From Naegleria gruberi (Eukaryota): 64,000 nucleotides of DNA. Both the position numbers and the translations under genes were made by a program. Location of the stretch: NCBI GenBank assembly GCA_000004985.1, contig GG738855.1. One strand, written 5' to 3'. The notes under the pieces are model-generated. The model was not told the DNA's origin and did no database searches. It saw nothing but the letters and a program-made list of their open reading frames with translations. Below are positions 28,901 to 56,400 of the stretch, one piece after another (position 1 is the first letter of the stretch; each line of letters opens with the position of its first letter).

Positions 28901-30833
28901 TGAACAATAGGTCCTTGTGCATTTCATGTTCTTCTTCTTCGTCTACCTCACTTACTGGTGCTTCAGAGAATAAATCAGATTCGGTAGGATCGAATGAAGT
29001 TGGTACTACTTGTGACTCTTTTCTAGGCCTTTTAGCACTCATGTACAAACCTCTTGCATCCTTTTCCAATCGATTGGCTTCTTCATAGAGGGTTTCAGAT
29101 TTCACCTTGTCAAACTGAAAAAGCTCAACGTACGTGGCATACAACCTGAGAATCTGTTTACTTCTCTTACTTCCCATTAATTCCTCAAACATTTGATTAC
29201 ATTCCACTGTAATCTCTGCAATCTTATTTGCAATCTTTTCAATGGTCGAGTATTGTGGTGATTCTTCAATAAGTTCCTTCCAAAAGTCTCTGTGGAGAGA
29301 CAGAAGCATATCCTGATTGTATTTCAATTCTTTGATGGTTCCATCGTCACCCAAATCAGAACTATTAATTGATGAGATATTTAGCCTATGCTCTTGCAAT
29401 TCTAATGATTTGTATAGGGAAATAGTTCTCATAAAAATATTCTTTGAATGTCTAACAATATGGTAGAGTATATCAATGGATTTGTCCAAATTGATGCTCT
29501 CATCTTCTTCTGCATGAGCTAACAGCATGGAAATGTAAAATAAACATTTAGGATCTCTGATATTCTTATTTATGAGCGTCTTGGCAGTAAGTAAATATAA
29601 TTCCCTTTCTGTCACATCTCCAGCAACAATTGCATGCTTTATTCTATGGTATTGACTAAAATAGAAGCTTAATTTAGAGAAATATCCTCTTCCATGATTC
29701 TCTTGCATAATATTTGTACAATTTACATCAACGCATGCAAGAATTGACTTTCTGTCAGATGATTTCAGATCAATCCCACTGAGTAGGGTTTTTCTGACTG
29801 AGTTGATTATCAAGCGCTGGTACAATTCCATCAAGATTATGAAAATAACAAAGAAAATGATTGCCAAGCCAAATGTCAAAGGCAGGCCAATTATTTGTAA
29901 ATAGAAATTATTTCCCTTCAGTATAGTAGAAACCAGTGAACCAATAGAAACGCCTGTTCTAGCACCTGCAACAGCAAATAATATTGAATTATCAACAGTA
30001 TTAAAACATGTCTTGAAATAGAATGTAACTGAAGCAAATATCAAGCTCATTACAATATTCAATGAATCTGAGATGATCTTGTATTCCAATGGAATTGAAA
30101 ATATGAGTAATACACCCATAAAGTTTACAATGTCAAGCGTCATAATATGAATGGGATAAGATGAGCAAAAAGGAACCCTATCATAAGTATTCATGTCACT
30201 AACAATCAATCTATTCAGGATTATTAATGCAAAGAGTATTGCCAAACATCCAATAGCTAATACAATTACTACCATGTTTCCAGAATCAATACAAGATACT
30301 TGATTGTACCTGTACAATAGTCGCTCCAATGTAGTTTCATTAATGAGATTCGAACAATTATAAAATCCCACCAGTATGTTTACGAAAAGAGGAGAAAGTA
30401 CAAGAAGTAAATTACCAAATATCCATAATCCTATTCTTACATATCTAATATTATCGAGTGCTTTCGTAACTACCCACACAGAGGCAATGCAAAGAACCAA
30501 ATTCATCATGACAAACATCATAACACCCAAACCTATTCCAATACTTGCATAATATCCCCACATGTCCACCAGCAATGTAATGGGGAAATTGATTATTGAA
30601 TATATTATATTCGAGTATAACTCTCCTACCTCTCCATTTCTAATCGAAGGAATAAACACAGAAATATACAGAAATAAGGAATGAAACAATAGAGTTGATA
30701 GATACCATTTCCATCCACGCTTTGAACCCTGTATCTTTACGGAAAGGAATGTGGAGAGAGTATTTTGGAGAGTCTTATTATTGAGGTTGGCTCTAATCAA
30801 ATTCTGACTAATCGAACTGCCAATATCAGTCAT
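25946..30833 (-). CDS. Large polytopic membrane protein with PAS domain and a truncated class III nucleotidyl-cyclase homology domain (multi-exon; one unresolved frame break)
   Basis: Minus-strand exons: complement(28614..30833) (~8 TM block plus cytoplasmic region plus TM), complement(28461..28567), complement(27482..28422), and complement(~27107..27433) which continues in another frame as ORF complement(25946..27106). Introns are GTAAGT...AG at 28568..28613, 28423..28460 and 27434..27481. The C-terminal part has TM, PAS (GSIIINTEGEVELINTPALNMLGLATQEILGTSFYSIFEEG...ILTIKDITSEKK) and cyclase motifs LLKNILPESVAQRLKRGDT|FIGINTGSVVAGVIGTKKFAYDLWGDAVNTASRMES. The ~90-aa segment with the FSDIVGFT/IGDAYM metal-binding aspartates is absent. 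The frame discontinuity at 27021..27106 has no plausible intron. Confidence 0.5.
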
Positions 30834-34300: not shown

Positions 34301-34455
34301 TTAGCCAAGAGAGCTTGACCACCATCTCCAGAATCACCACTTGAAGATGATTGTCCAGCAATTGAAGTGACAAGTGTCAGATCATAAACTGCATTGACAT
34401 GCATAATAGTAATACAAAGAAGAACAATGATCAACAAGAGCACCTCTTTTGCCAT
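31329..34455 (-). CDS. Single-pass adhesion-like protein: signal peptide - NHL-repeat beta-propeller - ~13 tenascin-type EGF repeats - GPS/GAIN-like motif - TM - short basic tail (contains frame errors and one in-frame TGA)
   Basis: Signal peptide MAKEVLLLIIVLLCITIMHVNA. NHL repeats (VYIADSYNNRIRKV, VYILDTNNARIRNI, LYVADTDNSRIRMV). Intron 33565..33622 is GTAAGT...ATATAG. EGF repeats of the form C.G.G.C...N.C.C..G(Y/F).G..C. Juxtamembrane CMFFDNSDKEWKTDGIETT...VTFSMSCRTSHLTSFAVI resembles a GPS autoproteolysis motif. TM VLIAVVASSVGGVVVVCVAGVLLAVVIALF. Two compensating frameshifts at about 34205-34260 and a TGA at complement(32244..32246). Confidence 0.55.
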
Positions 34456-34606
34456 TTTGTTTCTAAGATAATATTGTCAAGTAGTAAGAAATCTACATTT
34501 CATTTCGGCTAGTTTCGGGATGTTGAATCTCATTCGAAATAATCTTCCTTTACACCTGAAAAGCGACTCGTCATCAATGATCAATCTCATCAAAATGACA
34601 GTTTAT

Positions 34607-35746
34607 TTAAATTACAACAAGATTTTTCAATACATAATTACATTTGCCATCAAATACTGTTCCTGAAGGTGATTTGAATCCATTGGTTGTAATAAACAAG
34701 ACAATTGTGTCAACCAATGAATAAGATTCACTTTCCAATTCGTATTGAACGAATCCATCAGTAAGTTTCTTTTGAGTAATGCTAAAACTTGGATTGTCTA
34801 ATGTGTTCATGTACCAAGTTGAGTAACTTGAGCCACTGTTAACAACATTAGTTGGTTTTGAATTTCTGACGAAATAACGTTTGATACTCAAGTTGATTGT
34901 ATCAGTATATGGACAGGATCCACCATTCGCAATTTCAAAACGAATCTTCTTAATAGTTGCTGATCTTGGTAGTTCAATAGTTAAAGGAGTTTGTGTGAAA
35001 GTTCCAATTGAATATTGACTACTACTAGAAGTTAAAGAATGATAGTAATAATCACATCTATAACTATCAGAAGCACAATATGTAAATTGATTACCAATCA
35101 AGAAAACTTTTCCTGCTTTCAAAATGGTAGCATCATGATAAATTCCAGTAAATGAGCTAGTCTTTCCTTCAATGAATTCAATAAGAGCATTGTCATTGGA
35201 AGTGATTTGTCTATTCTTTGCAATCTTGTTAGAAGATCCAGGCTCTAAAAACCATAATCTTTCTTTCAATTCTGCAATATCCTTATTCATCACGTCAAAC
35301 ATCAAATCAATTTTTTCTTGTTGAGATATTTCAATCTTCTCCAACTTGAAATTGTACATTAAAAGTGAATCTGATGGATCTGGCAATACAATATTAATGA
35401 CATTTCCATTAATGGAATAGGAAGGTTTGACAACACTCATTGAAACACAACTTTTGTAATATCTAAATTCTGCCAAATTAGAATTACCATCTTGATAGAT
35501 GTATTTGTTGTATTGAAGGGAAGTTTCCATTGTGAGGAGAGTTGCGTTTAGTTTCATTGTTACTTGAATTGTATTCGAATCTTGTTTCTTTTCAATGGTA
35601 AAGACGAATTGACCAAAACCTGGACCATCTAGACCTGGTTGACCACGAAGGTGTAGTTGTTTTGCAAGTGGTGGTTGATATTGCGCACTTGCACAACTGA
35701 ATAGAACAACGAAAACTAAAGAGATTAGGATAATGTTTAGTTTCAT
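34607..35746 (-). CDS. Secreted protein of unknown function (family shared with the ORF at 51944..52897)
   Basis: 379-aa ORF with signal peptide MKLNIILISLVFVVLFSCASA. Shares blocks with the 51944 ORF: EFRYYKSC / HFKYYKTC, and KIDLMFDVMNKDIAELKERLWF / KLNTMLEVMMKDIAQLKGMLWF. Confidence 0.5.
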   Translation of the reverse strand: MKLNIILISLVFVVLFSCASAQYQPPLAKQLHLRGQPGLDGPGFGQFVFTIEKKQDSNTIQVTMKLNATLLTMETSLQYNKYIYQDGNSNLAEFRYYKSCVSMSVVKPSYSINGNVINIVLPDPSDSLLMYNFKLEKIEISQQEKIDLMFDVMNKDIAELKERLWFLEPGSSNKIAKNRQITSNDNALIEFIEGKTSSFTGIYHDATILKAGKVFLIGNQFTYCASDSYRCDYYYHSLTSSSSQYSIGTFTQTPLTIELPRSATIKKIRFEIANGGSCPYTDTINLSIKRYFVRNSKPTNVVNSGSSYSTWYMNTLDNPSFSITQKKLTDGFVQYELESESYSLVDTIVLFITTNGFKSPSGTVFDGKCNYVLKNLVVI

Positions 35747-36141: not shown

Positions 36142-39043
36142 ATGAATCGCACCAACACGCTTTCGTTTCTTCTTCTTCTGACATTATCCATTCTTCTTTT
36201 AACACTTTCGCGTATCCATGCAGCCATCAAAACTTCATCAATTCTTGCCTTTGGCTATAATCATAGATGGTAAATTCGGTCAGACACCAAATTTTGGTCA
36301 AAAATTACCTGTCAGACATTTGACTCTCGAACAGATATTGTTCAACTCTACTGAATCCATCAAAAAAGCAAAGATATCATCTAGTAACTTACCAGATAGT
36401 CTTCTTCCAGTGTTATCGCATGTGAGTGGAAGTAAACAAGGAGGAAATTTTGTGTTTCATGTCAAGTATATGAATAATGGTCAATTTGTGAATCAGACAG
36501 TGTTTTCATGTGGGAAAATGGGAAAGTTAACACCTCTAGTACCTATTTCGTCAACGCCGATGCCATCTTATGGATTTGTGAGTGAAGGAGTTTCGAATTA
36601 TGGAGACGAAAGATTGGTCAATCAAGAAATTATTAGTTTAAATTGCAAATATTCTTGTATTGCTGTAACTAATCAAGGATTATTATTCATCAAGTGGCAC
36701 AATGAAACTAGTTGGAAATTAGTAGAGTTGCCATCAACCTTCACAAATCCATCAAATTATGAAAATGTCAATTTGAGAATTTCACAAGCAGTCATTGGAG
36801 TTTCCTTAACTGAAGGATCTAACATTGAAGAAACCTTCCTATTACTGACTGATTCTGGATTTGTTTTGAGTTTTGGATATTGTAATAGTGGTTTGAGAGG
36901 TGATTCAACAAGTGCAACAGATTCTCTTTCGTCTAATTCATTCTATACCTTTACTACACTTTCAAATATTAGCTCCATTGGAGTTGGACCAGGTATTGGC
37001 TATGCCATCAATAGCACTGGTCAATTACACGTGTGGGGAAACAATCAAAATGGAATTCTAGGCGATCCTGACCCAAATCTCATTCTTTCAACTCCAAAAC
37101 ATTTGGAATTTAATTGTTTCATGAAGAAATTGTCATTTGGTGAGAGTTTTTGTTTATATTTGTGTCAGGATGGAAGAGTTTTTGGTAATGGACAAGATGC
37201 TGAAGGTGAAATATCAGCAGCACCTGGATCAATTATTTACACTCCTGTGGAAATTACTAGCTCGTTATCTGCTACATTTAATAGTGATATGATTATTGAC
37301 ATTTCGACTAGTGAAAAAACCAGTTTGGCTCTCACATCAACTGGTAAGATAGCAACATGGGGAGATGATAGTCAGCTCGCATTTGGAAGAGAAGGAAATG
37401 GTGGATACACAATTCCAGCAACATTTAGTTCTCTAAATATTGTAAAGGCATTTTTTGTTTACAATATTGGAATTGCAATTACAAATACCAATGAAACTTA
37501 TTATTGGGGATCTAATAGTGCTGGAGAAGCATGTTTGGGTGATTTGTGGTTTGCTGCCAAGCCAACTGTCATTCCAACATTGTCAGATGTTTCACAAACA
37601 CATGTCAATGAAATTTATTTAAGAGCTGCTTGTGGAATGATGCTATCCACAGATGGTATCACCAGTTCTAATATCACATACTGGGGGAAATGTAGTTCTG
37701 GATTGGATGGTCAATATGTTGATCCAACAGTCGCAGTTTCTGCCACAACCTTTGACAACTCACTTTTTAATAATGAAATTCTCAAAAAGTTTGCTCTGTT
37801 TAGAGGAACAGCTGTTGTTAACTCTATTTCTGGGAACAGTTATGGATGGGGAGAAGGTAGAGATTATCAATTGGGAGATGATTCAAGTCATCCTGTTCCA
37901 TTAGCACTATCAGTGAATGTTACTGATATTTTTAGCTCTAATCAATTTACAATTTTGGTTAAAAACGATGGTGGTGTTTATGGATTGGGGACTGTATCTA
38001 GCTCTGGAGCATTTGGTTCGTCCGTGCAAATGTTAACCACACTCACAAAATTGGACACTGATTACGTGACAAGTGATGGAAGCTCTGTAATTCAAGTTAA
38101 AGCTCTAGAAGGTATATCATATCTATTGACATCAAGTGGAAAGGTCTATGGTGCTGGATCCAATGCAAATCAACTCATTATTAACAATTCCACAACCAAA
38201 TTCGAAAACTTTGTAAGAATTAGTGGAGATGATTTACCAGATAATCACAGAATTCGAAAGATTATTGTCTTTCCAAATTCTCCACTAATATTTATTACCT
38301 ATGAAGGAGATGCTTATTATGTCTATCAAGGTATTCACAAGTTTCAGCTCCCAAATTCAAACGATTCATTTGTAATTCATGCATCTTCAAATTATTTGAA
38401 TTTCTATGTTATTACAAAGAAAGGAAATGTTTACGCTATGGGAACAACTAATGAATTTATGGAAATTTCTCAAAATCCAATGGTTTCAAGTTTGAATAAC
38501 ATGACATTGTATGCAACAAAGGAATCTCTTGGTGGTGTGCCTTACTTTATTTCCCCTGAAACCAATTTAGCCATTTTGGCCATCTCTAATGGATGGACAT
38601 GTAATGGAACAGCCTCTACCAGTGATTCTGTTTGTAATGGACATGGAGCATGTGTCGATCAGGATGTATGTGCCTGTAAAGAAAATTATGATGGATCCTA
38701 TTGTGAAAAGTTCACTTGTGGCGGAATTTCCAATGAGGATACAACCACTGTTTGTTCTGGAACAGGAAGTTGCACATCATTTGACACATGTGTTTGTAAA
38801 CAAGGATATAGTGGAGCAAATTGTGAAATTCCTTCTTGCTTTGGAGTAGCAAGTAGCAACACTGGAATTGTATGTAGTGGAAGAGGTCAATGTATGGGAT
38901 TAGATAAATGCAGTTGCATGACTGGATATTTTGGATCCAAGTGCGAATACAAGGCATGTTATTTTGAAAGTATAAGCGCCGGTACAGGAGCTATTCTATC
39001 AATCAAGAACAAGCTTTGTAGAGATATCAATAAATATCTTTAA
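36142..39043 (+). CDS. Secreted RCC1-repeat (beta-propeller) protein with C-terminal tenascin-type EGF repeats; N-terminal exon junction unresolved
   Basis: Signal peptide MNRTNTLSFLLLLTLSILLLTLS sits in ORF 36007..36273. The body is in ORF 36218..39043, so the frame switch near 36200-36265 implies a small intron or indel. RCC1-like repeats: GQLHVWGNNQNGILGD, GRVFGNGQDAEGEI, GKIATWGDDSQLAFG, YYWGSNSAGEACLGD, YGWGEGRDYQLGDD. C-terminal EGF modules CNGHGACVDQDVCACKENYDGSYCE and others. Confidence 0.55.
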
Positions 39044-39649: not shown

Positions 39650-41252
39650 TTGACAACAACTCCTTTTGAAATGACACAAGACCCACAACCAACATCTCAG
39701 CCAACTACTATCTCTACAAGTAATGACAAGCTCCATCCACCATCAACATCAACAACACAACTCCATCATCCAACAGAGAGCCATACTAAAAAAGATGCAG
39801 ATAACGAATCCAATAAATCATCTACTAAGAGCAGTTTCAGAAGAAAGCAAAAACAACGAGGCTGCTTATGTTTCCGAGGAGGGAAAGCAATTAAAGTGAA
39901 CACTTGTTGTGGTGTTTTGGAATTGTCTTGGATCAAAGTATTGGCCATTGTTGGTATGGCTCTTAATTCCTTCACATTTCTTGTATTATTGGCCTTGTTA
40001 ATTTTCAGTCAAAACTCAAATGCAGCCACTAATATTGATCTCTTAGCAATAAGAAGTGATTTATATCTGTATACAGCTTGGGTGGATGCTTATACACTTG
40101 TTGCTGCCTATTCCCAAAATAAGACCTATTTGAACTATTACTACAATTACCGTGATACCCTTAACACCTTGAAAGATGAACTTGTTTCAAAATTACCCTC
40201 CACTCTAGTGTCTCAACTCAATTCAACAGAAAGTTATCAATATTCTACATATTTAGAAGCTGCTGATACCCTGGCTGTGAATATGATGGAGAATGGAAAC
40301 TATTCGGGTGCTGTTTCTGTACTCACATCTGGATTCTACTATGCTACAAAGTTAAAATATAGAAATTTGCTGGATATTATTCTCAAATATATTCTGGATT
40401 CGCAAACAGAGGCAGAAAATTTATCGGATGCAGCTGTCATTTCTTCACTGGTCATTATAATGTGTAGCTGTTGCAGTGACAGTCCCTGCCATTCTGTTCA
40501 TCTTTGCATTCGCTATCAATAGAGAAGCATTAATGGCACAAAGATATAAAAAGGCAAGAGCTGTTGAATTGATGGATACAATGAGTAATGAAAAATTGAG
40601 AGCTCTCTTCCAAAAACACTGTATTAAGGAATTGAATAATGAAAACTTTGAATTTTTGGAAAAAGTTAATGAATATAAGAGATTGGTAGAACATCAAATT
40701 GAGTTGGTTCAATTATTGAGTGATGGAGATTCAATCCATTCCAATGAATTAACTCAATCTAGTTCCAATGTCTCAAGTAGTCAAATAAGTGCTGCCGAAG
40801 AACCCACTACAGCCAATACAAACACCAACAATTCATCAGATTCTAAAAAGAAGAAGCATACAATGACATCAGTCAAGTCCATTTCTGATTTGGAAAATGA
40901 GTTGGAAGAAATTGAAGGAAAAAAGTTTGCACTTGCCACTGAAATTTACAATAACTTCCTCGATTTGAAAGGACCAAAGACTGTCAACACCACCAAATCC
41001 CATGCTGATAAGGTAAAGATTGAATTGGAGTATTTCAAGAGCAAGCAAATTCATTCCTTGTCCGATGATTTGTTCACATCTTTGGAGAGTGAAATTTCCA
41101 TAGTCCTTCTCGATTCACATTATAGATTTAAAGAATCGATGGAATTTTTGAAGGAAATGAGAGTGAAGAGAATTAAAGATATCAATGAAAAGAAGAAGAT
41201 TAAATCCAATCAACACCACGATCAACACCATCATCACAATAATGGACATTAA
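39650..41252 (+). CDS. Two-TM membrane protein with cytoplasmic RGS domain (apparent +1 frameshift near 40468)
   Basis: ORFs 39650..40522 and 40476..41252 overlap in different frames. Reading through the overlap gives a continuous TM helix (SSLVIIM)CVAVAVTVPAILFIFAFAINREALMAQRYKK. It is followed by an RGS core LRALFQKHCIKELNNENFEFLEKVNEYKRL. A first TM VLAIVGMALNSFTFLVLLALLIF follows an S/T-rich N-terminus. Confidence 0.5.
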
Positions 41253-42404: not shown

Positions 42405-45400
42405 ATGCCGTCATTCCTCTCCAAGGGCAACAAACAACAACAGAGGGCCAGATCTTCTTCATCATCCAGTTACTACAACAGCCGAAATAAACATGATGGT
42501 GAATTACGTTTTCATGATGATGACGATGATATTGACAATTTCTTGGAACCTTCACATGACGTTCAACAACATCACGAAGCGGAATCAAAGAGAAAAAGTA
42601 TTACTCTTGCAGCACAATCAGTACCTGCCATAGTTTCAAATTCTGTTATTGGATGGCTTTCTGCTGTATCACTCGTTGTTCACTTGATAGTTTTAATAGC
42701 TTTTATTGCACTACCTCTCTTTTTAATATTTATTCATTTTGATTTTTGTTTCAAATGTGGAGGAGCAGAGTTTTTAATAATATTTCTGATGAGTTTGTTT
42801 GGAGTGGGATTACTCTTGTTTGGAATGCTGTATCCTCTCCGACAATATATTATTGAAAGGAGGAAACAATCAAAGTTAACACAAGAAGATATCATACAAC
42901 AACAATTGGAAGCACCTCTAGAAGATATGGAAGATGGTGAACATGGTATTGATTTTGATGAATATCATCATGATAATCAATTTGATGATGCACCAGCGGA
43001 TCGTGGTTTGACAAGTGGAAAAATTTCAATCTCCCTCGCTAGAGCAAATAGTAATTCTGGTTGGTTTAAGAGATTTTTCGATATTTCAGAGTTTTTAAAA
43101 ACAAGTAAGAAGGAAAAGGCTGCATGTTGTGTTTTCTCTACTTGTAGTATTGCTTCCTTCATTTGGTTGGCAGTCACAATCATTGTATTTTTAACATTTA
43201 TTTTCTTTGTGAGGTCAACTAGAGTTAACAAATCTGGACACATTTATTCATCAGTTATTTCTGGTAAAAAGGTTAGGATTGAGAGAGAACCTACAGGTAT
43301 GGTTCACGTTGCTGCTGAAAATATTAATGACCTTGCTTTTGGTCAAGGTGTTGCTGCTGCTCAAGACAGACTCTTCCAAATGGAACTCTACAAGATTATT
43401 GGTAAAGGCTCATTGGCAGAGATTGTTGGTTCGGATGCTCTCATTTTGGACAAGCTTTCACACGTTCTAGGTTTAAGAAAGTATGCTGAGGAGAATTTAG
43501 CAAATATTCCAAAGGATATAGTTTCTATTATTCAATCCTATGTTGACGGTATTAATGCATATATTGAATCAGGTCCTGCTCTGAGTGCAGAATTTTCTCT
43601 TGTTGGTTTCAAACCAACTAAATGGGAAGTTATTGACGTTTTGACATTTGAGAAATTATTTGCCTTACAAATGACTTACAACTACATTTTTGAATTGGCA
43701 AGATTAGTTGTTTTGGAGAGAGGTGCTACATTGGAGAGAGTAACAGAGCTTTCATCACCAATGTATGCTAATTATTTCACAGTTTTCAATAGGGAAGAAT
43801 TAAAGATGAATATCACTGATGAGGAGGCTGAAGAAATTGAGAAAAAGTTGTGGGATCAATCAGGTGCTTATATTCCATCTTCCACAAATTCTGGTGACGA
43901 ACATGTTCATAATTTTGGAGAAATGCTGTATGAGAAGCTATCAAATGACAAGTACCTCAAATTACTTTTACCAACCAAGAAGGGAAGTAGCAGAGGTTCA
44001 AATAATTGGGTTGTCGGCAAGAGTATTTCCGATTCCTCAAGTGGTTACAATGTTAACGATCCTCATTTGGATATTATGGCTCCCGTTATTGTTCAACAAA
44101 TTCACTTAAAGATTGTTAAGGATATTACTGCTGTTAATGATATTACATCAGTCAAGATGGAAGAGAATACATTTGAATTGATTGGAGCAAGTTTCCCTGG
44201 ATTACCAAGTGTTGGTATTGGTAGATCAGCTTTTATTTCTTGGAGTATTACCTTGTCTTTTAGTGATGTTCAGGATTTGTATGTATTGACTCCATGTCCT
44301 GATCAACCAGACACTCACTACATGGTAGATGGTAAACCAGAAGAATACAAGATTAGAAAGGTTAATATCAAGGTTGCTGGTGAAGAGAATGTGGAATTGG
44401 TAGTTAAAGAAAGTAGATTCGGTCCTGTTATTAATGACCCATTGATTACCATTGCTCATGCAGATGTAAAGACTCAAAAGCCAATGGCTCTCAAATGGAC
44501 TGCTCACTTACCAAATGATACTTCTATTATGGGTCTGCAACAAATGACTAATGCAAAGACTATGGATGAGTTCGCCAAGGCTACAAGGTTACTCACAGCT
44601 TTACCTTTTAGCATTGTTTTCACTGATAGAAATGGTAATATTGGTTATTCGTTGACAGGTACAACACCAATTAGACAACAAGGACATACTGGCATGTTTG
44701 CAATGCCTGGTGATATTTCCAAATATGAATACAAGGGATACGCCACTGGTGATCAAATAACAGTTATTAATCCACCAAAGGGTTATATTATTACAGCCAA
44801 CAACAGAATCACACCTGGTGGATTCCCTTATATTGTTAGCAACGATAACGAATTTGATTATAGAGCTAAAAGAATTGATGAAATGATTAGAAATGTTTTA
44901 GATGTAGAAAATAGAAAGATCACACAAAAAGACATGATAGAGGCACAAAATGATGTAAAGAGTTTGATCTATGAAGAGCTCAAGTTTGTACTCAGAAATA
45001 TTTCTCAATCACTCAAGGAAGATCCATATGCCAAATATGTTAATGGTTTGCTCAATGATTGGGACGGAAAGATTCTTAGAGAATCTACTCATGCCACTTT
45101 ATTTGAATTTTTCCTTACAAATCTTATCAAATTACCTGAGCATGAAGTCGGAAAGAAGTACTGGAATGATTTCTTCTATCTAAGAAGAGCTTTATCCAGT
45201 AATGGCGATATTGCTTGCACAGTCCACAGAAAGCAAACTTGTCAAGAGTTTGCAGTGGCCACTTTTAAGGAAACTGTTGACATTTTATTGAAACACTTTG
45301 GACAAATTCCTCCTTGGAAAGTTGTTCACTATATTGATGCATCCCATCCATTATTGGGATTGACACCACTTTCTTGTTTATCTGACAGAAAGATTCACTC

Positions 45401-45707
45401 CAATGGTGGCACATACACTGTGAATATCAACAATTTTGTCTATGATAAGGTTACTGAAACAACTATTCCAACTGTAAATGCAGCAGTTTATAGACAAATT
45501 ATTGGTGGAGGTGAATTCTCTAATTCTAAAATTGAAGGACAAGATGATTTATGGATCTCACCACTTGGACAAGATGGAAATATGTTTTCAGAACACTATG
45601 ACAACTTTATTGAAAAGTATATTGAGGGATCCTATCTCCCACTCACCACTGAGGCCAAGTACTTGTCTGACGTTTTTGAAATTCTTCCAACAGAAAAGTC
45701 GGATTAA
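42405..45707 (+). CDS. Penicillin amidase / acylase family (Ntn hydrolase) protein with ~290-aa N-terminal polytopic membrane extension
   Basis: 1100-aa ORF. Penicillin-amidase signature GMVHVAAENINDLAFGQGVAAAQDRLFQMELYK. Nucleophile context GSSRGSNNWVVGKS (SNxW). N-terminal TM helices LSAVSLVVHLIVLIAFIALPLFLIFIHF and FLMSLFGVGLLLFGMLYPL. Confidence 0.7.
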   Translation: MPSFLSKGNKQQQRARSSSSSSYYNSRNKHDGELRFHDDDDDIDNFLEPSHDVQQHHEAESKRKSITLAAQSVPAIVSNSVIGWLSAVSLVVHLIVLIAFIALPLFLIFIHFDFCFKCGGAEFLIIFLMSLFGVGLLLFGMLYPLRQYIIERRKQSKLTQEDIIQQQLEAPLEDMEDGEHGIDFDEYHHDNQFDDAPADRGLTSGKISISLARANSNSGWFKRFFDISEFLKTSKKEKAACCVFSTCSIASFIWLAVTIIVFLTFIFFVRSTRVNKSGHIYSSVISGKKVRIEREPTGMVHVAAENINDLAFGQGVAAAQDRLFQMELYKIIGKGSLAEIVGSDALILDKLSHVLGLRKYAEENLANIPKDIVSIIQSYVDGINAYIESGPALSAEFSLVGFKPTKWEVIDVLTFEKLFALQMTYNYIFELARLVVLERGATLERVTELSSPMYANYFTVFNREELKMNITDEEAEEIEKKLWDQSGAYIPSSTNSGDEHVHNFGEMLYEKLSNDKYLKLLLPTKKGSSRGSNNWVVGKSISDSSSGYNVNDPHLDIMAPVIVQQIHLKIVKDITAVNDITSVKMEENTFELIGASFPGLPSVGIGRSAFISWSITLSFSDVQDLYVLTPCPDQPDTHYMVDGKPEEYKIRKVNIKVAGEENVELVVKESRFGPVINDPLITIAHADVKTQKPMALKWTAHLPNDTSIMGLQQMTNAKTMDEFAKATRLLTALPFSIVFTDRNGNIGYSLTGTTPIRQQGHTGMFAMPGDISKYEYKGYATGDQITVINPPKGYIITANNRITPGGFPYIVSNDNEFDYRAKRIDEMIRNVLDVENRKITQKDMIEAQNDVKSLIYEELKFVLRNISQSLKEDPYAKYVNGLLNDWDGKILRESTHATLFEFFLTNLIKLPEHEVGKKYWNDFFYLRRALSSNGDIACTVHRKQTCQEFAVATFKETVDILLKHFGQIPPWKVVHYIDASHPLLGLTPLSCLSDRKIHSNGGTYTVNINNFVYDKVTETTIPTVNAAVYRQIIGGGEFSNSKIEGQDDLWISPLGQDGNMFSEHYDNFIEKYIEGSYLPLTTEAKYLSDVFEILPTEKSD

Positions 45708-46515
45708 GATTCGCACATCTTTAGCCAAACAGGTAAAGGATTTGTTTATTTTGAGCAATCAAAGTTTAACGGTGAATACCTCAACTGCAAGATGGGTTAT
45801 TTTACTTGATGCATTCATTAGAAGAGATTAATTTAATTCAAACAATCATGCATCTTTGGGTCATAAACATAAAGCTGATTTACCATATTTACTGATTAAC
45901 ATCGTTCTAAAGTTACTGTTCGACTATCTCTGTATTACCCATAAATGGACATTATTAATCTCTCACTTTTGAATTACCCTTTTCGAATAACATTGTTTAA
46001 ATTCTTCGAATAATTTATTATTATTGGTGAGGCAATGGCAAAGAAATTGAGTGTTTCTATTGTGGCTACTGAAGAAACAAATAGGGAGGTTTCGTCCAAA
46101 TACTTGGTAAGGTCGTTACTGGTCTTGTCCCACTTGTTAGAAACAAGAAGAAGGAAAAGACGAAAGTATACGAAATGGGAGATTCCACTAATGTTGTATG
46201 GACGAATGGATGTATGAATTTTGAAATGTATCTGAAAGGAAACTATTCTGATAGTTTGGCTTTACATAGAGAATTTTCTGAAAAACATCCAGAAGATAAA
46301 CCAACTCTACAGCTCATCAAAAAAAATCTTAAAGAAACTTCCAAAAATGTTAATGAAACACGGGATGACCTGAACTGGTCAAAGCTAGTCAACTTCTGCT
46401 TGTCACTGATATTTCCTTCCCAAGTCATTGAACTGAAGTGAGATAAACTTGCCGAAACTCATCACGGATCGCTTCAAAACAATACGAAAAATTGCCTCAT
46501 CATTGAACATGCATT

Positions 46516-48732
46516 CATTATCGGCAATATTCATCCTACTTTTTTACACTATTCTATTCGCAAGGAATTTACAGTTCTTTTACTTGTTTTCACATTTCAT
46601 CAACCGATGCAAAAGTTTGCTCTTCTCGAGGGTCATGCCTTTCTACCAACAATTGCACATGTTCTACAGGTTTCTACGGAAGTAATTGTCAGTGGAGTGA
46701 TGATCCAATACTAAACGAACCTACTTTGGATTTATTTGGTTTAGGAATTGGAATTGTTAGACGAAATGTTTCGAATCCAACCTATGATTTGATGATTTCT
46801 GCAACTAAATTAACTTTTCTTGATTCTAAATTGAGAGAATTGATGGGATGTTCATTGGAAAGTGAAAATTGTTATTCTGTAATTGAATTTAAATGGTCAA
46901 TTAGTATGAATGCAATTAGTTTGGATTCTTCTAATGGATTTGTGATGGCAAATTTATCCCAAGTTGATGTATTGACATTTTCTCCAGTCATTCAATTTCA
47001 AAGTAGCAAAGGTTTGATTTCTGGCAGTCAGTTGATTACTTCTATTGAACTAAAGACGAAATATTCTAACGTTAACATGAGTACTAAAGGATGTACTCTA
47101 ANAAGGAACATCACATTGGAAATTGAAAATACAGTAACTTGTCTCTGTTCACACACAACCATGTTCTCTACCTTTATTGAACATAACAGTACATTTGCTG
47201 TCAAAGTCAAACAACAGCTGTCAACGCTATATTATGCTCAAATAGCTTTTGGTGTATTCTATTTTATCATTTCCTTAATAATATTAATTCTATTATTTGC
47301 TTTTAGAAAGGAACAACCAATTTCAAGTAGATTAGCAACTCCATTTATGGGAATGATAGCCCTATTGGTAGAAAGTTGTTTAATTTACATTACTCAGAGA
47401 GGAATTTTAGTGAATCAACTGAAATCTAGTAATAATCAAATGTGGGAGAGTGGAGATAATGATTCCAATATTATTGCAAATATTGTTACAATTTTTGTAA
47501 ACTCTTTAAATTTAACAGCAATATTTTGCTATGTTATTCAAGTGGTTAGATTTGAATTGATGAAATTCATGTACAAATTAATTCACAAGACGAAAGGAAA
47601 TGAGTCTAAAAGTGATATAGTATTGAAATCTATTAGAATATCAACATCAACAAGTTTATTCTTACTCTTGACAACTTTATTTATGAGTTTTAATCTGGTT
47701 TATTGGACAATTTGGGTTGTTTTGAGACGAATTAATGTAATTGAGCCTTCAACTTACACTTACATTGTTTCCATTTCGTATACTGTCATAATATTCTTCT
47801 TGAGTTTAGTAATTGCAACTGTATTAGTATTCGATTTTATTATAACAATTAAAGAAAAGAAAGAAGAGAAGAAGAATGAGCCCACAGATTCAACAGTGAA
47901 AGAAAATCTGGTAAAGAAATCAATCAAGATGAAGAATTCACTCTCAAAGGTTTATGATTTTTTCATTAGTTTAGATGAGCCACTCTATTTCAGAGTCGAA
48001 ATGATTCTCTACCTAATATGTTTCGTATTTCTAATAGTGAATCAAGTGATTGGACTCATTGGATTACCATATCGATTCATAGACGAGGAAAATTACAAGA
48101 CAGCTCTCCAATATGATGTAATTTCATTTATATTTGAAGTTTTATACGTTTTCACCTATATTCTAGTATTTGGTGGATATGCTTTGTTGATCCTACTCAT
48201 TTACAAAGTAAAGATTTGGAGAAAATTTTCAAAGAATGGAAAATCAAAGCAGGATGATGGAATGTTGAAGAATAAGGAACTTTTACTTGTGATTAGGAAT
48301 GAGGAATCGTACGAATCATTTGAAAAGTTTTGTGAAAAGGAATTTTCCTTAGAGAATCTTTATTTACATTCAATATTGGAAAAACATTCAAAAATAGTGA
48401 ATGGAGAGACATTTGAAGGGTTATCAACTCTACTTAATCAAATATTTGAAGGATTCATCCAATCAGGAGCAACAAATGAAGTGAATATTCCAAACAGTTG
48501 TAGAACAAAGATTGTCAACCTCCACAAAAAATATGGTTTTGAAAAGAAGGATTCAGATTTAAAGAATGTTGATTTAGAAGAAGTGAGACAGGCATTCTTT
48601 TCATTAGTTCAACAAGTATTTGTCAATCTTGGTGACACCTTCTCTCGATATTCTCTAACAACTGAATGGAAAGTTTTCAAAAAGGCAATTGAATTGAAAG
48701 AACACATTACGGAGAAAGCAAACTTGTATTAG
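46516..48732 (+). CDS. EGF - GPS-like - 7TM receptor with C-terminal cytoplasmic RGS domain (adhesion-GPCR-like 7TM-RGS)
   Basis: Main ORF 46726..48732 (668 aa; ambiguous base n at 47102). Seven hydrophobic helices: YAQIAFGVFYFIISLIILILLFAF; FMGMIALLVESCLIYIT; IIANIVTIFVNSLNLTAIFCYVIQVV; STSLFLLLTTLFMSFNLVYWTIWVVL; YIVSISYTVIIFFLSLVIATVLVF; MILYLICFVFLIVNQVIGLIGL; VISFIFEVLYVFTYILVFGGYALLILLIY. GPS-like TCLCSHTTMFSTF lies ~25 aa before TM1. C-terminal RGS core ESYESFEKFCEKEFSLENLYLHSILE. The same frame is open upstream to ~46516 and encodes an EGF module VCSSRGSCLSTNNCTCSTGFYGSNCQ. A signal-peptide-like MHSLSAIFILLFYTILFA lies in a neighbouring frame (46509...), so the 5' end is unresolved. 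Confidence 0.6.
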   Translation, partial: HYRQYSSYFFTLFYSQGIYSSFTCFHISSTDAKVCSSRGSCLSTNNCTCSTGFYGSNCQWSDDPILNEPTLDLFGLGIGIVRRNVSNPTYDLMISATKLTFLDSKLRELMGCSLESENCYSVIEFKWSISMNAISLDSSNGFVMANLSQVDVLTFSPVIQFQSSKGLISGSQLITSIELKTKYSNVNMSTKGCTLXRNITLEIENTVTCLCSHTTMFSTFIEHNSTFAVKVKQQLSTLYYAQIAFGVFYFIISLIILILLFAFRKEQPISSRLATPFMGMIALLVESCLIYITQRGILVNQLKSSNNQMWESGDNDSNIIANIVTIFVNSLNLTAIFCYVIQVVRFELMKFMYKLIHKTKGNESKSDIVLKSIRISTSTSLFLLLTTLFMSFNLVYWTIWVVLRRINVIEPSTYTYIVSISYTVIIFFLSLVIATVLVFDFIITIKEKKEEKKNEPTDSTVKENLVKKSIKMKNSLSKVYDFFISLDEPLYFRVEMILYLICFVFLIVNQVIGLIGLPYRFIDEENYKTALQYDVISFIFEVLYVFTYILVFGGYALLILLIYKVKIWRKFSKNGKSKQDDGMLKNKELLLVIRNEESYESFEKFCEKEFSLENLYLHSILEKHSKIVNGETFEGLSTLLNQIFEGFIQSGATNEVNIPNSCRTKIVNLHKKYGFEKKDSDLKNVDLEEVRQAFFSLVQQVFVNLGDTFSRYSLTTEWKVFKKAIELKEHITEKANLY

Positions 48733-53357: not shown

Positions 53358-53407
53358 NNNNNNNNNNNNNNNNNNNNNNNNNNNNNNNNNNNNNNNNNNN
53401 NNNNNNN
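53358..53407. other. Scaffold gap (50 N); identical-length gaps at 61557-61606 and 63221-63270
   Basis: Runs of n in the sequence. Confidence 0.95.
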
Positions 53408-56400
53408 TAGTGTCATCACAGACTAAACCTTTAGATAATAATCAAAGTGGTTCTGGAAATGACCNCAGTTTCATCACAAACTAAACCCTTGGATAACAAC
53501 CAAGGTGGTTCTGAAAAGAACCTAGATGCTATTCTTCACGCCATCACTTCATTGGGTGAGAGAATTAAACATCTTGAAGCAGTTCCACCCATCCTTCAAG
53601 AAGCTGATCAACTTGATGACAACTCTGATGAGGATTCTGCTGAAGATTCCACTGGTAAACATTGGGGTATGTCAACAATCAAGGAGATTAGAAGACACTA
53701 CGAAGTTGGCGACAGATTAGCCGATGGAGATGTCTTAAGTTTTGTTTCAGCCAAAACTCTTCGTCGTTATCAAACCAATGATGCTCTTTTGAATAGAGTT
53801 CAATCATTAATGGCTAGATTTGAATCCGTTATTCATAATCATCGTACTCATCCCCGTTTGCAAGAAATCCAATCAAAGGGCTTGCAAAAGATGATGGAAA
53901 TGTTGCATTTGAAATCTAGACTACTCCATTTCGCTTTAAGTCACCCAATGAACGTTGCTAACATCATTGAAATCACAGAATTAGTTTATCTTCTCTGTGA
54001 GGTCGAGAAAATCTTCTTGGAAGAAGGTTTGTTTGATAGTAATTTTGAGGTTGCCACCAATTTCATTCAACCATTCGTACAGAGCAATACGTTCGCTGAC
54101 ATAACCGAAAAAGCACGTAGTAAGAAGAGAGAGAAAGCTGTTATCAAGACTGCTTTTGTTGGAAAGATTCAAAAACCCAACAAAATGAAAGAGAAGTTGA
54201 ACAAACCCTACACTTCTCAACACAACAGCTACTCTAAGTCTTACAAGAGTAACTCCAATTTTCAAAAATCAGGAGACTCAAAACCAAAGTACAACAACAA
54301 CAACGGTGGAGGATCCTTCAGCAAGGACCTCTGACTTGGTGGGTTGTCGTCTTGGCAAGTTTGTAACTCAGTGGGAGAGTTACAACTTCAACCCATTCAT
54401 AGTGGATTGGATTCGGAATGGAGTTCCAATCTACTCAAATCCCACCCTTTGGAAAGAATTCAAGCAAAGGAAGAATTTCTCTCCAAAGGAGACCTCTTGG
54501 ATGGATCAAGAAATCCAAGAGATGTTGAGTTCCAATGTCATCGAACTTGGAAACAAATCTACGGTACTCAATCCAATAAACATTGTCCCCAAGAAGGGCT
54601 CAGATCAGTTTCGTTTTATTCTGGATCTCAGGAAAGTAAACTTGGGGATCAAGGATACTTCGTTCAAGATGGACAACATTCAAAAATGTTTGAAGTTTGT
54701 TCAGAAAGGAATGTGGGCAACAAAGATAGACCTGAAGAAAGGCTATTTTCATGTTCCCATCAGAGAGAGTCATCGACACCTTCTGGGATTCAAGTACAAG
54801 AGCCTTGTATACCAATTCAAATGCCTTCCATTTGGTCTAAGTCAAGCTCCCAGAAACTTCACCAAGATAATGAAGGAACTAATGACCAAGTGGAGAAAGC
54901 AGGGCATCTTGGTATTCATTTACATCGACGATATATTGATTCTAAGCAACCACAAGGAAACTACCCAACAACACACAGAGATAATCTTGAAAGACCTAGA
55001 AACATTAGGATGGATTATACAGAAGGAGAAAAGTGTGTTGACACCTTGTCAATGCATAGAATTTCTGGGTCTGGAATTGGATTTAATATCAGGTTTGGTA
55101 AAAATTCCACTCAACAAACAAGCCACTGCGATAAAACTGATCCAAGACTTCTTGTCAGCGAACCAACTGAACAGATATGTAGCTTGCAAGAAAGTGGCTC
55201 AGTTTCTTGGGAAGATGGAATTTCTAACCCTATCAAACCATTATTTTGCACCATTTCTGGCTCGTCTTCGAAAGGATATGGTGAAAGTAGTAAACGACAA
55301 ATCCTGGCACGCATCGATGAGAATATTCAGAGGTGCAACCAAAGACCTCAAGATATTGAAAACTCTGATTCAGGAAAACAGTGGAGTTCCATTCGAACTG
55401 AACTCAATGAACCCGATTCGAGTGAATTCAGATGCTTGCCCAACAGGTTATGGAATCGCAGAATCAACCATTACAATTGGAAGATTCAATTCCTCAGAGC
55501 ACATCAATGTCAAAGAGTTAAAAACACTCCTCATTTTCTTCACACAAGCAGATCAATTAAACCTTTATGGTCCTGGTCAAGCATTCGAGATAAGAGGCGA
55601 CAATGTAACAGCAATATCTTATATAAGGAGAGGTTACGGAGTCATCGAAGAACTCTCACAAATAGCCAGAGATCTCTACAAAATTCTAATGAGAAGAAAA
55701 TGGTGGATTTCCAAAGTGATTTATATTCCCTCAAAGGAAAACATTTTGGCGGACAGACTGAGTCGTCTAACAGAATGGAAATCCTCTCAAGAACTATTGA
55801 ATCTAGTTCAGACAGAATTTGGAAAACACCACGTGGACAGATTCTCAACATTGGAATCAACCACAACAATTCAATTCAATTCATGGATAGAGAACGACAC
55901 ATTTCTGAACCCATGGGAACAAAATCTGATGAGCTATTGTGCTCCTCCTCTGGGTCTGATATCTCAAGCTCTAGTTCACTGCATCAAGTCAGGAGCCAAA
56001 GCGACATTTGTGGTTCCAGATTGGCCCTCTTCGATATGGTTTCCAGTCTTGCTAAAGATATCAGAAAGAATGATAACTGTTTCGAGAAAGATGCTTATAA
56101 TAACGCCCTTATCAGAGTTGCAAGACAAGTTCGAGAATTCGAATTTCCTGGTTGTTCAAGTGCATGGCAAGTTATTCAAACAATGAGAGAAATCAGTATT
56201 CTCTCTTCAATAGGTGAAAAAACCTTCAGAACCTACAACAGGATTTATGGTGGTTTTCTTTGGTTTATCAATGTGTTCGATCTTACCATTGATAATCCTT
56301 TAGCTATTGAATATTACATCTCTTACCTTCTGGTTAATGTTCAAGGTTACAAAGCAAATACTGTGCAAGCAGCTATTCAATTCTTTGCTAACCTTGATGG

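What the first reader, a model, noticed from the sequence alone, without database searches (positions are those of the whole stretch)
46516..48732. 7TM receptor combining an extracellular EGF module and GPS-like motif with a C-terminal RGS domain
The ORF has seven clear hydrophobic helices. A GPS-like autoproteolysis motif (TCLCSHTTMFSTF; consensus C.C.HLT.FAVL) lies ~25 residues before TM1. An in-frame upstream EGF module (CSSRGSCLSTNNCTCSTGFYGSNCQ) is present. The cytoplasmic C-terminus carries an RGS core (FEKFCEKEFSLENLYL). 7TM-RGS fusions are known from plant AtRGS1-type proteins, and GPS-7TM is the adhesion-GPCR hallmark. Their combination in one polypeptide, receptor plus GAP for its own G-alpha, is architecturally notable. 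Two further RGS-domain genes (4598-6607 and 39650-41252, the latter a 2-TM RGS protein) lie in the same 64 kb.
Basis: partly seen in the sequence, partly recalled or inferred. Interest (0 to 1): 0.75.

Follow-up and report, generated by a model that had tools for sequence, protein, structure and literature searches.

The report
Naegleria 7TM-RGS receptor, shortened ectodomain
This is a real gene of the amoeba Naegleria gruberi for a seven-helix membrane receptor that carries its own G-protein "off switch" (RGS domain); the design is unusual but was already described for the sister species N. fowleri, and this copy is a member with most of its outer domain missing.

Summary
Window 46573-48732 (+) is one open frame encoding one EGF module, the C-terminal half of a GPS motif (CLCSH-T/T-MFSTF), seven TM helices and a C-terminal RGS domain (Pfam 31 bits, cutoff 23.9). 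The window is Naegleria gruberi nuclear DNA, and GenBank holds only a 5'-truncated 523-aa "predicted protein" for this gene.

The architecture is not new. Bosch et al. 2022 (PMC9283941) reported 28 "7TM RGS" proteins in N. fowleri, several with GPS motifs, EGF repeats and lectin domains, and showed that their RGS domains are GAPs for Naegleria G-alpha subunits. A profile search here finds 84 cluster representatives at E<1e-30. The named ones come from N. gruberi, N. fowleri, N. lovaniensis and Willaertia.

This copy differs in being the shortest member. About 430 aa are missing relative to its closest paralogs: most of the REJ-like region and GAIN domain, including a Trp present in 82/82 relatives. 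Its GPS scores below the Pfam cutoff and AF2 does not fold its ectodomain. Yet 38/38 conserved 7TM positions are kept. The signal-peptide-like ATG (46509) is one base out of frame. The 7TM has a generic GPCR fold, not class B2. Verdict: new member of a known kind, modest interest.

The parts
46509..46565 (+). Candidate initiator ATG and signal-peptide-like hydrophobic stretch (MHSLSAIFILLFYTILFA...), read in a frame offset by one base from the EGF/7TM frame
   Evidence: Three-frame translation. It is the only Met-initiated hydrophobic stretch between the upstream gene's end (45707) and the EGF. There is no GT dinucleotide between 46509 and 46573, so no intron can join the two frames.
46540..46545 (+). 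T6 homopolymer. Removing one T joins the ATG frame to the EGF frame and gives MHSLSAIFILLFTLFYSQG/IYSSFTCFH... (about 740 aa)
   Evidence: Either a base-call error or a genuine frameshift; this could not be resolved with public data.
46573..46692 (+). Single EGF-like module (SSFTCFHISSTDAKVCSSRGSCLSTNNCTCSTGFYGSNCQ, six Cys)
   Evidence: Pfam EGF_2 20.4 bits, E=7e-4, cutoff 22.1. tblastn to EGF repeats of N. gruberi paralogs P0006/P0013 shows 44-52% identity.
46711..47037 (+). Remnant of the REJ-like region that follows the EGF repeats in paralogs (LNEPTLDLFGL...GCSLESENCYSVIEFKWSIS...)
   Evidence: tblastn: equals P0013 aa 297-388 (E=3e-8), P0006 aa 952-1059 (E=2e-5) and P0005 aa 119-228. P0005 has Pfam REJ at 34.8 bits over aa 170-395. 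AF2 pLDDT is below 50 here.
47038..47079 (+). Junction where about 430-450 aa present in paralogs are absent: the rest of REJ, GAIN subdomain A, most of subdomain B, and the first GPS Cys and both Trp
   Evidence: Paralog alignments stop at 47037 (P0006 aa 1059) and resume at 47080 (P0006 aa 1492; P0013 aa 839; P0005 aa 681). The 'W-x(2-5)-C' is present in 82/82 relatives and absent here.
47080..47175 (+). C-terminal half of the GPS motif plus a Stachel-like strand: STKGC...TCLCSH-T/T-MFSTF. The putative scissile bond lies between codons 47155-47157 (Thr183) and 47158-47160 (Thr184)
   Evidence: Pfam GPS 16.5 bits, below the 22.5 cutoff, profile positions 17-43 only. 9/9 family-conserved positions are kept. 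HTT is found in 78/82 relatives. The family profile hits aGPCR GAIN sequences in PDB at E 3e-4 to 7e-3.
47102..47102 (+). Single ambiguous base N (codon aNa, aa 165). It is not an assembly gap
   Evidence: A single HSP to paralogs runs continuously across it.
47224..48219 (+). Seven-transmembrane GPCR-fold domain. TM1 47224-47322, TM2 47329-47412, TM3 47470-47547, TM4 47656-47724, TM5 47752-47856, TM6 47977-48081, TM7 48112-48219
48247..48720 (+). Cytoplasmic RGS domain (AF2 helices aa 547-704; Pfam match aa 563-679)
   Evidence: Pfam RGS 31.2 bits, above the 23.9 cutoff. RGS5/RGS16 alignments conserve EFSxENL and EVNI. Foldseek TM up to 0.80.
48730..48732 (+). Stop codon TAG

Best explanation
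The locus is a Naegleria gruberi member of the heterolobosean '7TM RGS' receptor family.

Shown here:
- One open frame encodes a single EGF module, a remnant of the REJ/GAIN-GPS ectodomain, a GPCR-fold seven-helix bundle and a canonical RGS domain.
- The bundle, the retained GPS half and the RGS keep the residues conserved across the family. These include the R4-type G-alpha-contact motifs EFSxEN and EVN.
- Full-length paralogs carry a true GAIN domain.

Inferred from the family's published biochemistry (Bosch et al. 2022) and from AtRGS1:
- The protein sits in the plasma membrane with the EGF/GPS remnant outside and the RGS inside.
- The RGS domain accelerates GTP hydrolysis on Naegleria G-alpha subunits, some of which self-activate. 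The receptor would therefore hold G signalling off.
- An extracellular input transmitted through the 7TM would change the access or activity of the RGS.

Inferred for this copy in particular:
- It descends from an EGF-REJ-GAIN-7TM-RGS paralog by an in-frame loss of about 430 aa.
- It probably no longer autoproteolyses, because the GAIN fold that positions the H-T/T site is gone.
- Its conserved TxFSTF strand is probably no longer sequestered in a GAIN beta-sandwich.
For: - Organism and identity: 100% match to N. gruberi 'predicted protein' P0001.
- Domains: RGS above the Pfam cutoff, a seven-TM GPCR fold and an RGS fold.
- Family size: 84 representatives at E<1e-30 over GPS+7TM. Nearly all of the first 93 listed carry a C.C.HTT.F core and a C-terminal RGS. 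Named members come from N. gruberi, N. fowleri, N. lovaniensis and Willaertia magna.
- Pfam on 28 members: RGS in 26, GPS in 25, EGF in 8, REJ in 4.
- True GAIN in a paralog: the AF2 model of P0002 matches CD97 (E=1.2e-8) and the BAI3 GAIN crystal structure (E=5.3e-7, TM 0.53).
- Deletion mapping.
- Constraint: 38/38 7TM, 9/9 GPS-half and 17/21 RGS conserved positions are kept.
- Published function of the family: the RGS domains of Nf 7TM RGS2/3/4 are GAPs for Nf G-alpha 2/3/5/7 (PMC9283941).
Against: - No expression or protein data exist for this gene.
- The signal-peptide-like start is one base out of frame with the rest.
- GPS is below the Pfam cutoff, and the ectodomain is not confidently folded by AF2 (pLDDT below 50 for aa 30-196).
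- Four of 21 family-conserved RGS positions differ.
- GAP activity has been shown only for three N. fowleri paralogs. None of them is a demonstrated ortholog of this gene.
- How the ectodomain or 7TM regulates the RGS is unknown for the whole family.
Confidence: 0.75

Rival explanations
1. A decaying paralog (young pseudogene). An internal deletion removed the GAIN domain and a frameshift cut off the signal peptide. The long ORF merely has not yet accumulated stops.
For: - There is a one-base frame offset between the only signal-peptide-like ATG and the EGF, and no possible intron can fix it.
- The Trp present in 82/82 relatives and the first GPS Cys are uniquely lost.
- Only 2/8 conserved pre-GPS ectodomain positions are kept.
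- No 1:1 ortholog was found in N. fowleri or N. lovaniensis. The best hits are 32-46% identical paralogs.
Against: - The frame stays open for about 740 codons in 68% A+T DNA.
- The copy is only about 46% identical to its nearest paralog, yet it keeps 38/38 conserved 7TM, 9/9 GPS-half and 17/21 RGS positions. That is as good as or better than intact members. Most of its divergence therefore happened under purifying selection.
- The deletion is in frame.
- The region has an ambiguous base (47102), so the T6 run may simply be a base-call error.
Confidence: 0.15
2. A true G-protein-activating receptor with a built-in brake. The 7TM acts as a GEF for a slow-exchanging G-alpha, triggered as in adhesion GPCRs by the TMFSTFI tethered peptide. 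The fused RGS then shortens the signal of that same G-alpha.
For: - The Stachel-like T-x-F-[ST]-x-F-[ILV] pattern is conserved across relatives and lies about 22 residues before TM1.
- N. fowleri has both slow- and fast-exchanging G-alpha subunits, and both kinds bind 7TM RGS domains (PMC9283941).
Against: - No GEF activity has been shown for any 7TM-RGS protein. In the characterised precedent, AtRGS1, the characterised activity is GAP action on a self-activating G-alpha, likely modulated by extracellular cues (as summarised in PMC9283941).
- No sequence similarity was found to any Pfam 7TM family.
- In this copy the GAIN domain that would gate the tethered peptide is missing.
Confidence: 0.2
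3. The short ectodomain is an assembly artefact. About 1.3 kb was collapsed or lost in the draft assembly, and the real gene has a full REJ-GAIN ectodomain.
For: This is a draft assembly, with a single N at 47102 only 23-65 nt from the junction and a 151-N gap at 53358 in the same window.
Against: - The junction (47038-47079) is upstream of the N, and paralog alignment is continuous across the N.
- The join is in frame.
- The sequence on both sides is unique to this copy: about 30% identity to paralogs on the 5' side and 46% on the 3' side. It is not a chimera of near-identical repeats.
Confidence: 0.05

Closest known systems
Naegleria fowleri '7TM RGS' proteins (Nf 7TM RGS1-4 and 24 others; Bosch et al. 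2022, J Biol Chem 298:102167, PMC9283941)
   Same: - Same genus and same architecture: EGF-like repeats, GPS motif, seven TM helices and a C-terminal RGS.
- Direct sequence homology over GPS+7TM+RGS. N. fowleri P0004 gives E=1e-67. P0005, whose 90% cluster contains N. fowleri FDP41_000688, is 44% identical.
- The RGS keeps the canonical G-alpha-contact residues.
   Different: - This copy has one EGF instead of many.
- It lacks about 430 aa of REJ/GAIN and the first half of the GPS.
- It is the shortest family member among those listed from these searches.
- No biochemical data exist for it, and no demonstrated 1:1 ortholog was found.
Arabidopsis AtRGS1-type 7TM-RGS proteins
   Same: Seven TM helices followed by a cytoplasmic RGS box. 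The presumed logic is a membrane GAP acting on (self-activating) G-alpha, regulated from outside the cell (as summarised in PMC9283941 and PMC3971589).
   Different: AtRGS1 has a short N-terminus with no EGF or GPS (own knowledge of the family). Homology of the two 7TM bundles was not tested here, because the afdb50 library was unavailable. The fusion may have arisen independently.
Adhesion GPCRs (class B2; e.g. CD97/ADGRE5, BAI3/ADGRB3, latrophilins)
   Same: - EGF repeats and a GAIN/GPS domain sit immediately before a 7TM.
- The H-x-S/T site (HTT) is present.
- The hydrophobic pattern T-x-F-x-x-F/L-I/M matches the tethered agonist.
- The family GPS profile hits aGPCR GAINs, and a paralog's modelled GAIN matches the BAI3 and CD97 structures.
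   Different: - The 7TM is not recognisable as 7tm_2.
- The C-terminus is an RGS domain, which is not part of the adhesion-GPCR definition (own knowledge).
- In this copy the GAIN domain itself is missing.
Polycystin-1 / PKDREJ / sea-urchin REJ proteins
   Same: REJ domain followed by GAIN/GPS and then membrane helices. Paralogs have Pfam REJ (4 of 28 members, best E=4e-28). The window copy keeps the first ~100 aa of that region.
   Different: Those proteins have an 11-TM polycystin channel-type membrane part and a PLAT domain (own knowledge). Here the membrane part is a 7-TM GPCR fold with an RGS. No REJ Pfam hit was found in this copy.
GPR158/GPR179-RGS7-Gbeta5 complexes
   Different: RGS7 is recruited in trans rather than fused. 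The similarity is fold-level only (9% identity), with no evidence of common descent.

Membership tests
Heterolobosean/Naegleria 7TM RGS family (Bosch et al. 2022) | Seven transmembrane helices | tested here: met
Heterolobosean/Naegleria 7TM RGS family (Bosch et al. 2022) | RGS domain C-terminal to TM7 | tested here: met
   Pfam PF00615 31.2-31.4 bits against a cutoff of 23.9, aa 563-679.
Heterolobosean/Naegleria 7TM RGS family (Bosch et al. 2022) | Sequence homology to N. fowleri members across 7TM and RGS | tested here: met
   P0004 (N. fowleri) E=1.1e-67, 32% identity, 75% coverage. P0005 is 44% identical, and its 90% cluster contains N. fowleri FDP41_000688. 38/38 conserved 7TM positions are kept.
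Heterolobosean/Naegleria 7TM RGS family (Bosch et al. 2022) | GAP activity of the RGS domain on Naegleria G-alpha | not testable with these tools
   Only sequence proxies are available. EFSLEN and EVNI align to EFSEEN and EVNI of RGS5/RGS16.
Adhesion GPCR (class B2) | Complete GAIN domain (helical subdomain A plus beta-sandwich B) containing the GPS | tested here: not met
   About 430 aa are absent relative to paralogs. GPS scores 16.5 bits, below 22.5, over profile positions 17-43 only. The first Cys and the Trp present in 82/82 relatives are lacking. AF2 pLDDT is below 50 for aa 30-196. The feature is met in paralog P0002.
Adhesion GPCR (class B2) | H-x-S/T autoproteolysis triad followed by a hydrophobic tethered-agonist strand about 20 aa before TM1 | tested here: met
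   SH-T/T-MFSTFIE at 47149-47181. HTT is found in 78/82 relatives. The motif definition is taken from the abstract of PMC13062082. Actual cleavage is not testable here.
Adhesion GPCR (class B2) | 7TM of the secretin/adhesion (Pfam 7tm_2) type | tested here: not met
AtRGS1-type 7TM-RGS | 7TM directly followed by a cytoplasmic RGS box | tested here: met
AtRGS1-type 7TM-RGS | Homology of the 7TM bundle to the plant AtRGS1 bundle (common descent of the fusion) | not tested
RGS domain (R4-like, GAP-competent) | Nine-helix RGS fold with conserved G-alpha-contact residues (Ser/Glu/Asn of 'SxEN', Asn of 'EVN', Asp/Arg of 'D..xR') | tested here: met
   Foldseek TM 0.64-0.80 to RGS4/RGS9/RGS16. Alignment to RGS5/RGS16. 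E578, S580, E582, N583, N626, D676 and R680 are invariant or nearly invariant in the family. Assignment of these residues as G-alpha contacts rests on my knowledge of the RGS4-Gi-alpha1 structure (1AGR).
EGF-like domain | Six-cysteine pattern and profile match | tested here: inconclusive
   The six-Cys pattern is present. Pfam EGF_2 gives 20.4 bits, under the 22.1 cutoff, with E=7e-4. It aligns at 44-52% identity to EGF repeats of paralogs that pass Pfam. Whether it is translated depends on the unresolved 5' end.
REJ domain (polycystin-1/PKDREJ) | Pfam REJ profile match | tested here: not met
   No REJ hit in this copy. Only about 100 aa align to the start of the REJ-like region of paralogs. 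REJ is present in 4 of 28 relatives.

The most novel reading that the evidence does not exclude
This copy is a natural 'GAIN-less' receptor. It retains a perfectly conserved Stachel-like strand (T-MFSTFIE) and 7TM but has lost the beta-sandwich that normally hides that strand. The tethered peptide would then be permanently free to engage the 7TM, giving a constitutively 'on' or 'off' 7TM-RGS.

If so, comparing it with full-GAIN paralogs in the same cell would directly test two things. One is whether the GAIN/Stachel switch, so far known only on class B2 receptors and polycystins, controls an RGS/GAP output. The other is whether GAIN-7TM coupling evolved on a non-class-B 7TM scaffold outside animals and their relatives.
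Probability: 0.15. Interest if true: 0.55.

Novelty: new member of a known kind. Interest (0 to 1): 0.3.

Why it matters
It matters modestly.

- The gene shows that the public N. gruberi model (523 aa, starting right after the GPS site) misses the whole ectodomain. This is probably true of other family members too.
- The EGF/REJ/GAIN-7TM-RGS family described in N. fowleri extends to N. gruberi, N. lovaniensis and Willaertia, with at least 84 clusters at 50% identity.
- The family is of interest for G-protein signalling evolution: a GAIN/GPS switch sits on a GPCR-fold bundle that is not class B and is fused to a GAP. It is also of interest as a surface-receptor repertoire in a genus that includes a lethal pathogen.
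- This particular copy, with its GAIN deleted but its Stachel, 7TM and RGS fully conserved, is a ready-made natural deletion mutant for testing what the GAIN domain does in these receptors.

Tried and rejected
1. Intron rescue of the 5' end. I looked for a GT donor between ATG 46509 and the first EGF Cys. None exists before 46574. The one good donor upstream (GTAAGG at 46109) is in the wrong phase for the acceptors at 46563 and 46573 (read). Rejected. A one-base indel in the T6 run, or an unannotated start, remains.

2. The N at 47102 as an assembly gap hiding the missing GAIN. Rejected, because paralog alignment is continuous across it and the junction lies upstream of it.

3. Public evidence for the true 5' end. 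The look-up of encoding contigs found no record for P0001. Two word-indexed protein searches returned only P0001 at high identity.

5. Foldseek against afdb50, to look for AtRGS1 or non-heterolobosean relatives. The library was not available.

6. Whether the neighbouring RCC1-EGF ORF (36218-39043) and the 2-TM RGS gene (39650-41252) form one receptor. This is unlikely on topology, since two TMs would put the ectodomain and the RGS on the same side. It was not pursued further.
Full report
**Residue numbering.** "aa" means the residue number in the 707-aa translation of window 46609-48729.

**What the window is.** The ORF at 46726-48732 (+) is 100% identical over its last 523 residues to a GenBank/UniProt entry, "predicted protein [Naegleria gruberi]" (P0001). 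Base composition is 30-40% G+C, and long genes are largely uninterrupted. The window is therefore N. gruberi nuclear DNA. The public gene model begins at Met185 (MFSTF...). That is immediately after the GPS-like site and shortly after a single ambiguous base at 47102, so the model omits the whole ectodomain.

**Checking the observation.**
- The frame is open from the TGA at 46504-46506 to the TAG at 48730-48732.
- Hydropathy gives seven segments: aa 206-238, 241-268, 288-313, 350-372, 382-416, 457-491 and 502-537.
- AlphaFold2, run with a 26-sequence family alignment, models them as a helical bundle at pLDDT 85-95.
- The C-terminus is an RGS domain. Pfam gives 31.2-31.4 bits against a cutoff of 23.9. 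phmmer finds RGS5 and RGS16. Foldseek gives TM-scores up to 0.80 to RGS16, RGS9 and RGS4.
- The alignment to RGS5/RGS16 conserves EFSxENL and EVNI. From my knowledge of the RGS4-Gi-alpha1 structure, these contain the Ser/Glu/Asn and Asn residues that contact G-alpha switch regions.
- The motif TCLCSHTTMFSTF is at 47137-47175, about 22 residues before TM1.
- The EGF unit (six Cys, 46573-46692) is in the same frame with no intervening stop. EGF_2 scores 20.4 bits, just under its cutoff of 22.1. The unit aligns at 44-52% identity to EGF repeats of N. gruberi paralogs.

**What it belongs to.**
- A profile of the GPS+7TM part, deliberately without the RGS, was searched against 1.84 billion representatives. 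It found 621 proteins at E<=0.001 and 84 at E<1e-30.
- Nearly all of the first 93 listed cover the full profile and are 1200-2600 aa long.
- By my own regex and HMM they carry a C.C.HTT.F[ST].F core and a C-terminal RGS. Many have up to 34 EGF-like repeats.
- Named members come from N. gruberi, N. fowleri, N. lovaniensis and Willaertia magna.
- Pfam on 28 members gives RGS in 26, GPS in 25, EGF types in 8, REJ in 4, NHL in 2 and an RCC1-like domain in 1.
- Hits weaker than about 1e-17 match only the GPS region. One that was looked up is an animal protein with canonical HLT.FAVL sites.
- The family's GPS profile hits the GAIN domains of ADGRF1, ADGRL3, ADGRE5 and ADGRG1 among PDB sequences, at E 3e-4 to 7e-3.
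- The AF2 model of a full-ectodomain paralog, P0002 (pLDDT 78.7), shows a helical subdomain (aa 32-171) followed by a beta-sandwich ending in the GPS. It matches inactive CD97 (E=1.2e-8) and the BAI3 GAIN crystal structure (E=5.3e-7, TM 0.53).

The family therefore has a genuine GAIN domain.

**Prior art.** Bosch et al. [quoted passage not shown] The isolated RGS domains of Nf 7TM RGS2, 3 and 4 accelerated GTP hydrolysis on Nf G-alpha 2, 3, 5 and 7, and some of those G-alpha subunits self-activate. De Mendoza et al. 2014 (PMC3971589) had already noted 7TM-RGS architectures in many bikonts.

**What is particular to this copy.**
- tblastn of paralogs against the window shows homology in three blocks. 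The first is 46555-46713 (EGF). The second is 46711-47037, which equals P0013 aa 297-388 and P0006 aa 952-1059, the beginning of the REJ-like region; P0005 has Pfam REJ at 34.8 bits. Homology then jumps to the third block, 47080-48726, which equals P0006 aa 1492-2071 at 46% identity.
- About 430-450 residues are therefore absent: the rest of the REJ-like region, GAIN subdomain A, most of subdomain B and the first half of the GPS.
- The Trp in "W-x(2-5)-C" is present in 82/82 relatives with a GPS core and is missing here. So is the first GPS Cys, which is at least 90% conserved.
- Pfam GPS consequently matches only profile positions 17-43, at 16.5 bits and below the cutoff. Paralogs score 26-32 bits over positions 2-43.
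- AF2 gives pLDDT below 50 for aa 30-196.
- The N at 47102 is not a gap. A single alignment runs across it, and the junction lies 23-65 nt upstream of it.
- In a leave-one-out count on the 26-sequence alignment, this copy keeps 38/38 family-conserved positions in the 7TM and 9/9 in the retained GPS half. It keeps 17/21 in the RGS, where other members range from 9 to 19 matches. It keeps only 2/8 in the pre-GPS ectodomain.
- The membrane and cytoplasmic parts have therefore evolved under the same constraint as in intact members. The ectodomain is what has been reduced.

**The 5' end.**
- The only Met-initiated hydrophobic stretch between the upstream penicillin-amidase-family gene (ends 45707) and the EGF is MHSLSAIFILLFYTILFA at ATG 46509. 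It is in a frame one base off the EGF frame.
- No GT occurs between 46509 and 46573, so an intron cannot reconcile the frames.
- Deleting one T of the T6 run at 46540-46545 gives MHSLSAIFILLFTLFYSQG/IYSSFTCFH..., a plausible signal peptide joined directly to the EGF.
- I cannot tell whether this is a base-call error or a real frameshift. No other public copy of the gene was found.

**Which kind of 7TM.**
- None of the 28 members matches a listed Pfam 7TM family at E<=1.
- The family profile hits no 7TM region among PDB sequences.
- Foldseek's top hit for the window model is CD97, but only at E=2e-3.

The bundle is a bona fide GPCR fold of undetermined class. Membership in class B2 is not supported, although the ectodomain logic (EGF, GAIN/GPS, Stachel-like strand) is the same.

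**How it most likely works.**
- Shown: topology-compatible domain order, a GPCR fold, and an RGS fold with conserved contact motifs.
- Inferred from Bosch et al. 2022 and from the AtRGS1 precedent they summarise: the RGS is held at the membrane by the 7TM and acts as a GAP on Naegleria G-alpha subunits, and extracellular events alter that activity.
- For this copy, loss of the GAIN fold makes autoproteolysis unlikely. It also leaves the conserved TMFSTFI strand without its beta-sandwich partner.
- Whether that strand docks into the 7TM like an adhesion-GPCR tethered agonist is speculation, stated as the novel case.
- Rivals: a young pseudogene (frameshift plus deletion, countered by the conservation data), a true GEF-type receptor with a built-in brake (not excluded and not mutually exclusive), and an assembly collapse (unlikely).

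**Verdict.** The finding is real and was read essentially correctly, but it is a new, ectodomain-truncated member of an already described Naegleria 7TM-RGS family rather than a new architecture. Interest is modest (0.3). The useful by-products are a corrected gene model and a natural GAIN-deletion variant.

Noticed in passing
window 31329-35746, minus strand: A probable multi-exon gene for a teneurin-like surface protein built from four ORFs. ORF 34607-35746 starts with a signal-peptide-like stretch. ORF 33619-34215 has NHL repeats (50 bits). ORF 32244-33533 has six or more EGF repeats (EGF_TEN 126 bits). ORF 31329-32072 has a GPS above the Pfam cutoff (23.0 against 22.5) with a canonical SHL/TSFAVI site, followed by a single TM helix and an 11-aa tail. 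This is a GAIN/GPS protein with one TM, not seven, and no RGS.
   Followed up: partly
window 36218-39043 (+) and 39650-41252 (+): An RCC1-like beta-propeller (280 bits) followed by three EGF repeats. About 600 bp downstream is a gene with two hydrophobic segments and a partial RGS match (29.6 bits, profile positions 4-46 only), which needs a short intron near 40476-40522. RCC1-like plus EGF ectodomains also occur in one 7TM-RGS family member, so neighbouring loci share ectodomain modules with the family.
   Followed up: partly
window 4598-6607 (+): A 669-aa protein with long low-complexity Ser/Asn/Gln-rich sequence, no TM segment and a C-terminal RGS domain (40.3 bits). It is one of the many soluble RGS proteins of Naegleria; Bosch et al. 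count 79 non-7TM RGS proteins in N. fowleri.
   Followed up: partly
window 42405-45707 (+): An intronless 1100-aa penicillin-amidase-family protein (Pfam 537 bits over aa 289-1084), directly upstream of the target gene. Read by eye from the translation, its ~290-aa N-terminal extension contains hydrophobic stretches. This enzyme family is mostly bacterial (own knowledge).
   Followed up: no
window 53358-53508: A run of 151 N, which is an assembly gap. The only other ambiguous base in the window is the single N at 47102 inside the target gene.
   Followed up: yes
window 28590-30833, minus strand: A 747-aa protein with about eight hydrophobic segments and a TmcB-like TPR region (48 bits), immediately downstream of the NHL-EGF-GPS gene on the same strand. 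It appears to be a separate gene.
   Followed up: no
window 45830-46500: About 700 bp between the amidase gene and the receptor gene contains short ORFs (46035-46217, 46175-46441) with no Pfam match, and a GTAAGG...TTAG intron-like element at 46109-46139. It is unclear whether this is a small gene, a 5' UTR or a promoter.
   Followed up: partly
P0003 (N. lovaniensis C9374_006073) and P0001 (N. gruberi): Public gene models of family members are often defective. P0003 lacks TM7, with TM6 joined directly to the RGS. P0001 lacks the ectodomain. P0002 and P0004 are N-terminally partial. Counts of '7TM' members from annotation alone will be underestimates.
   Followed up: partly
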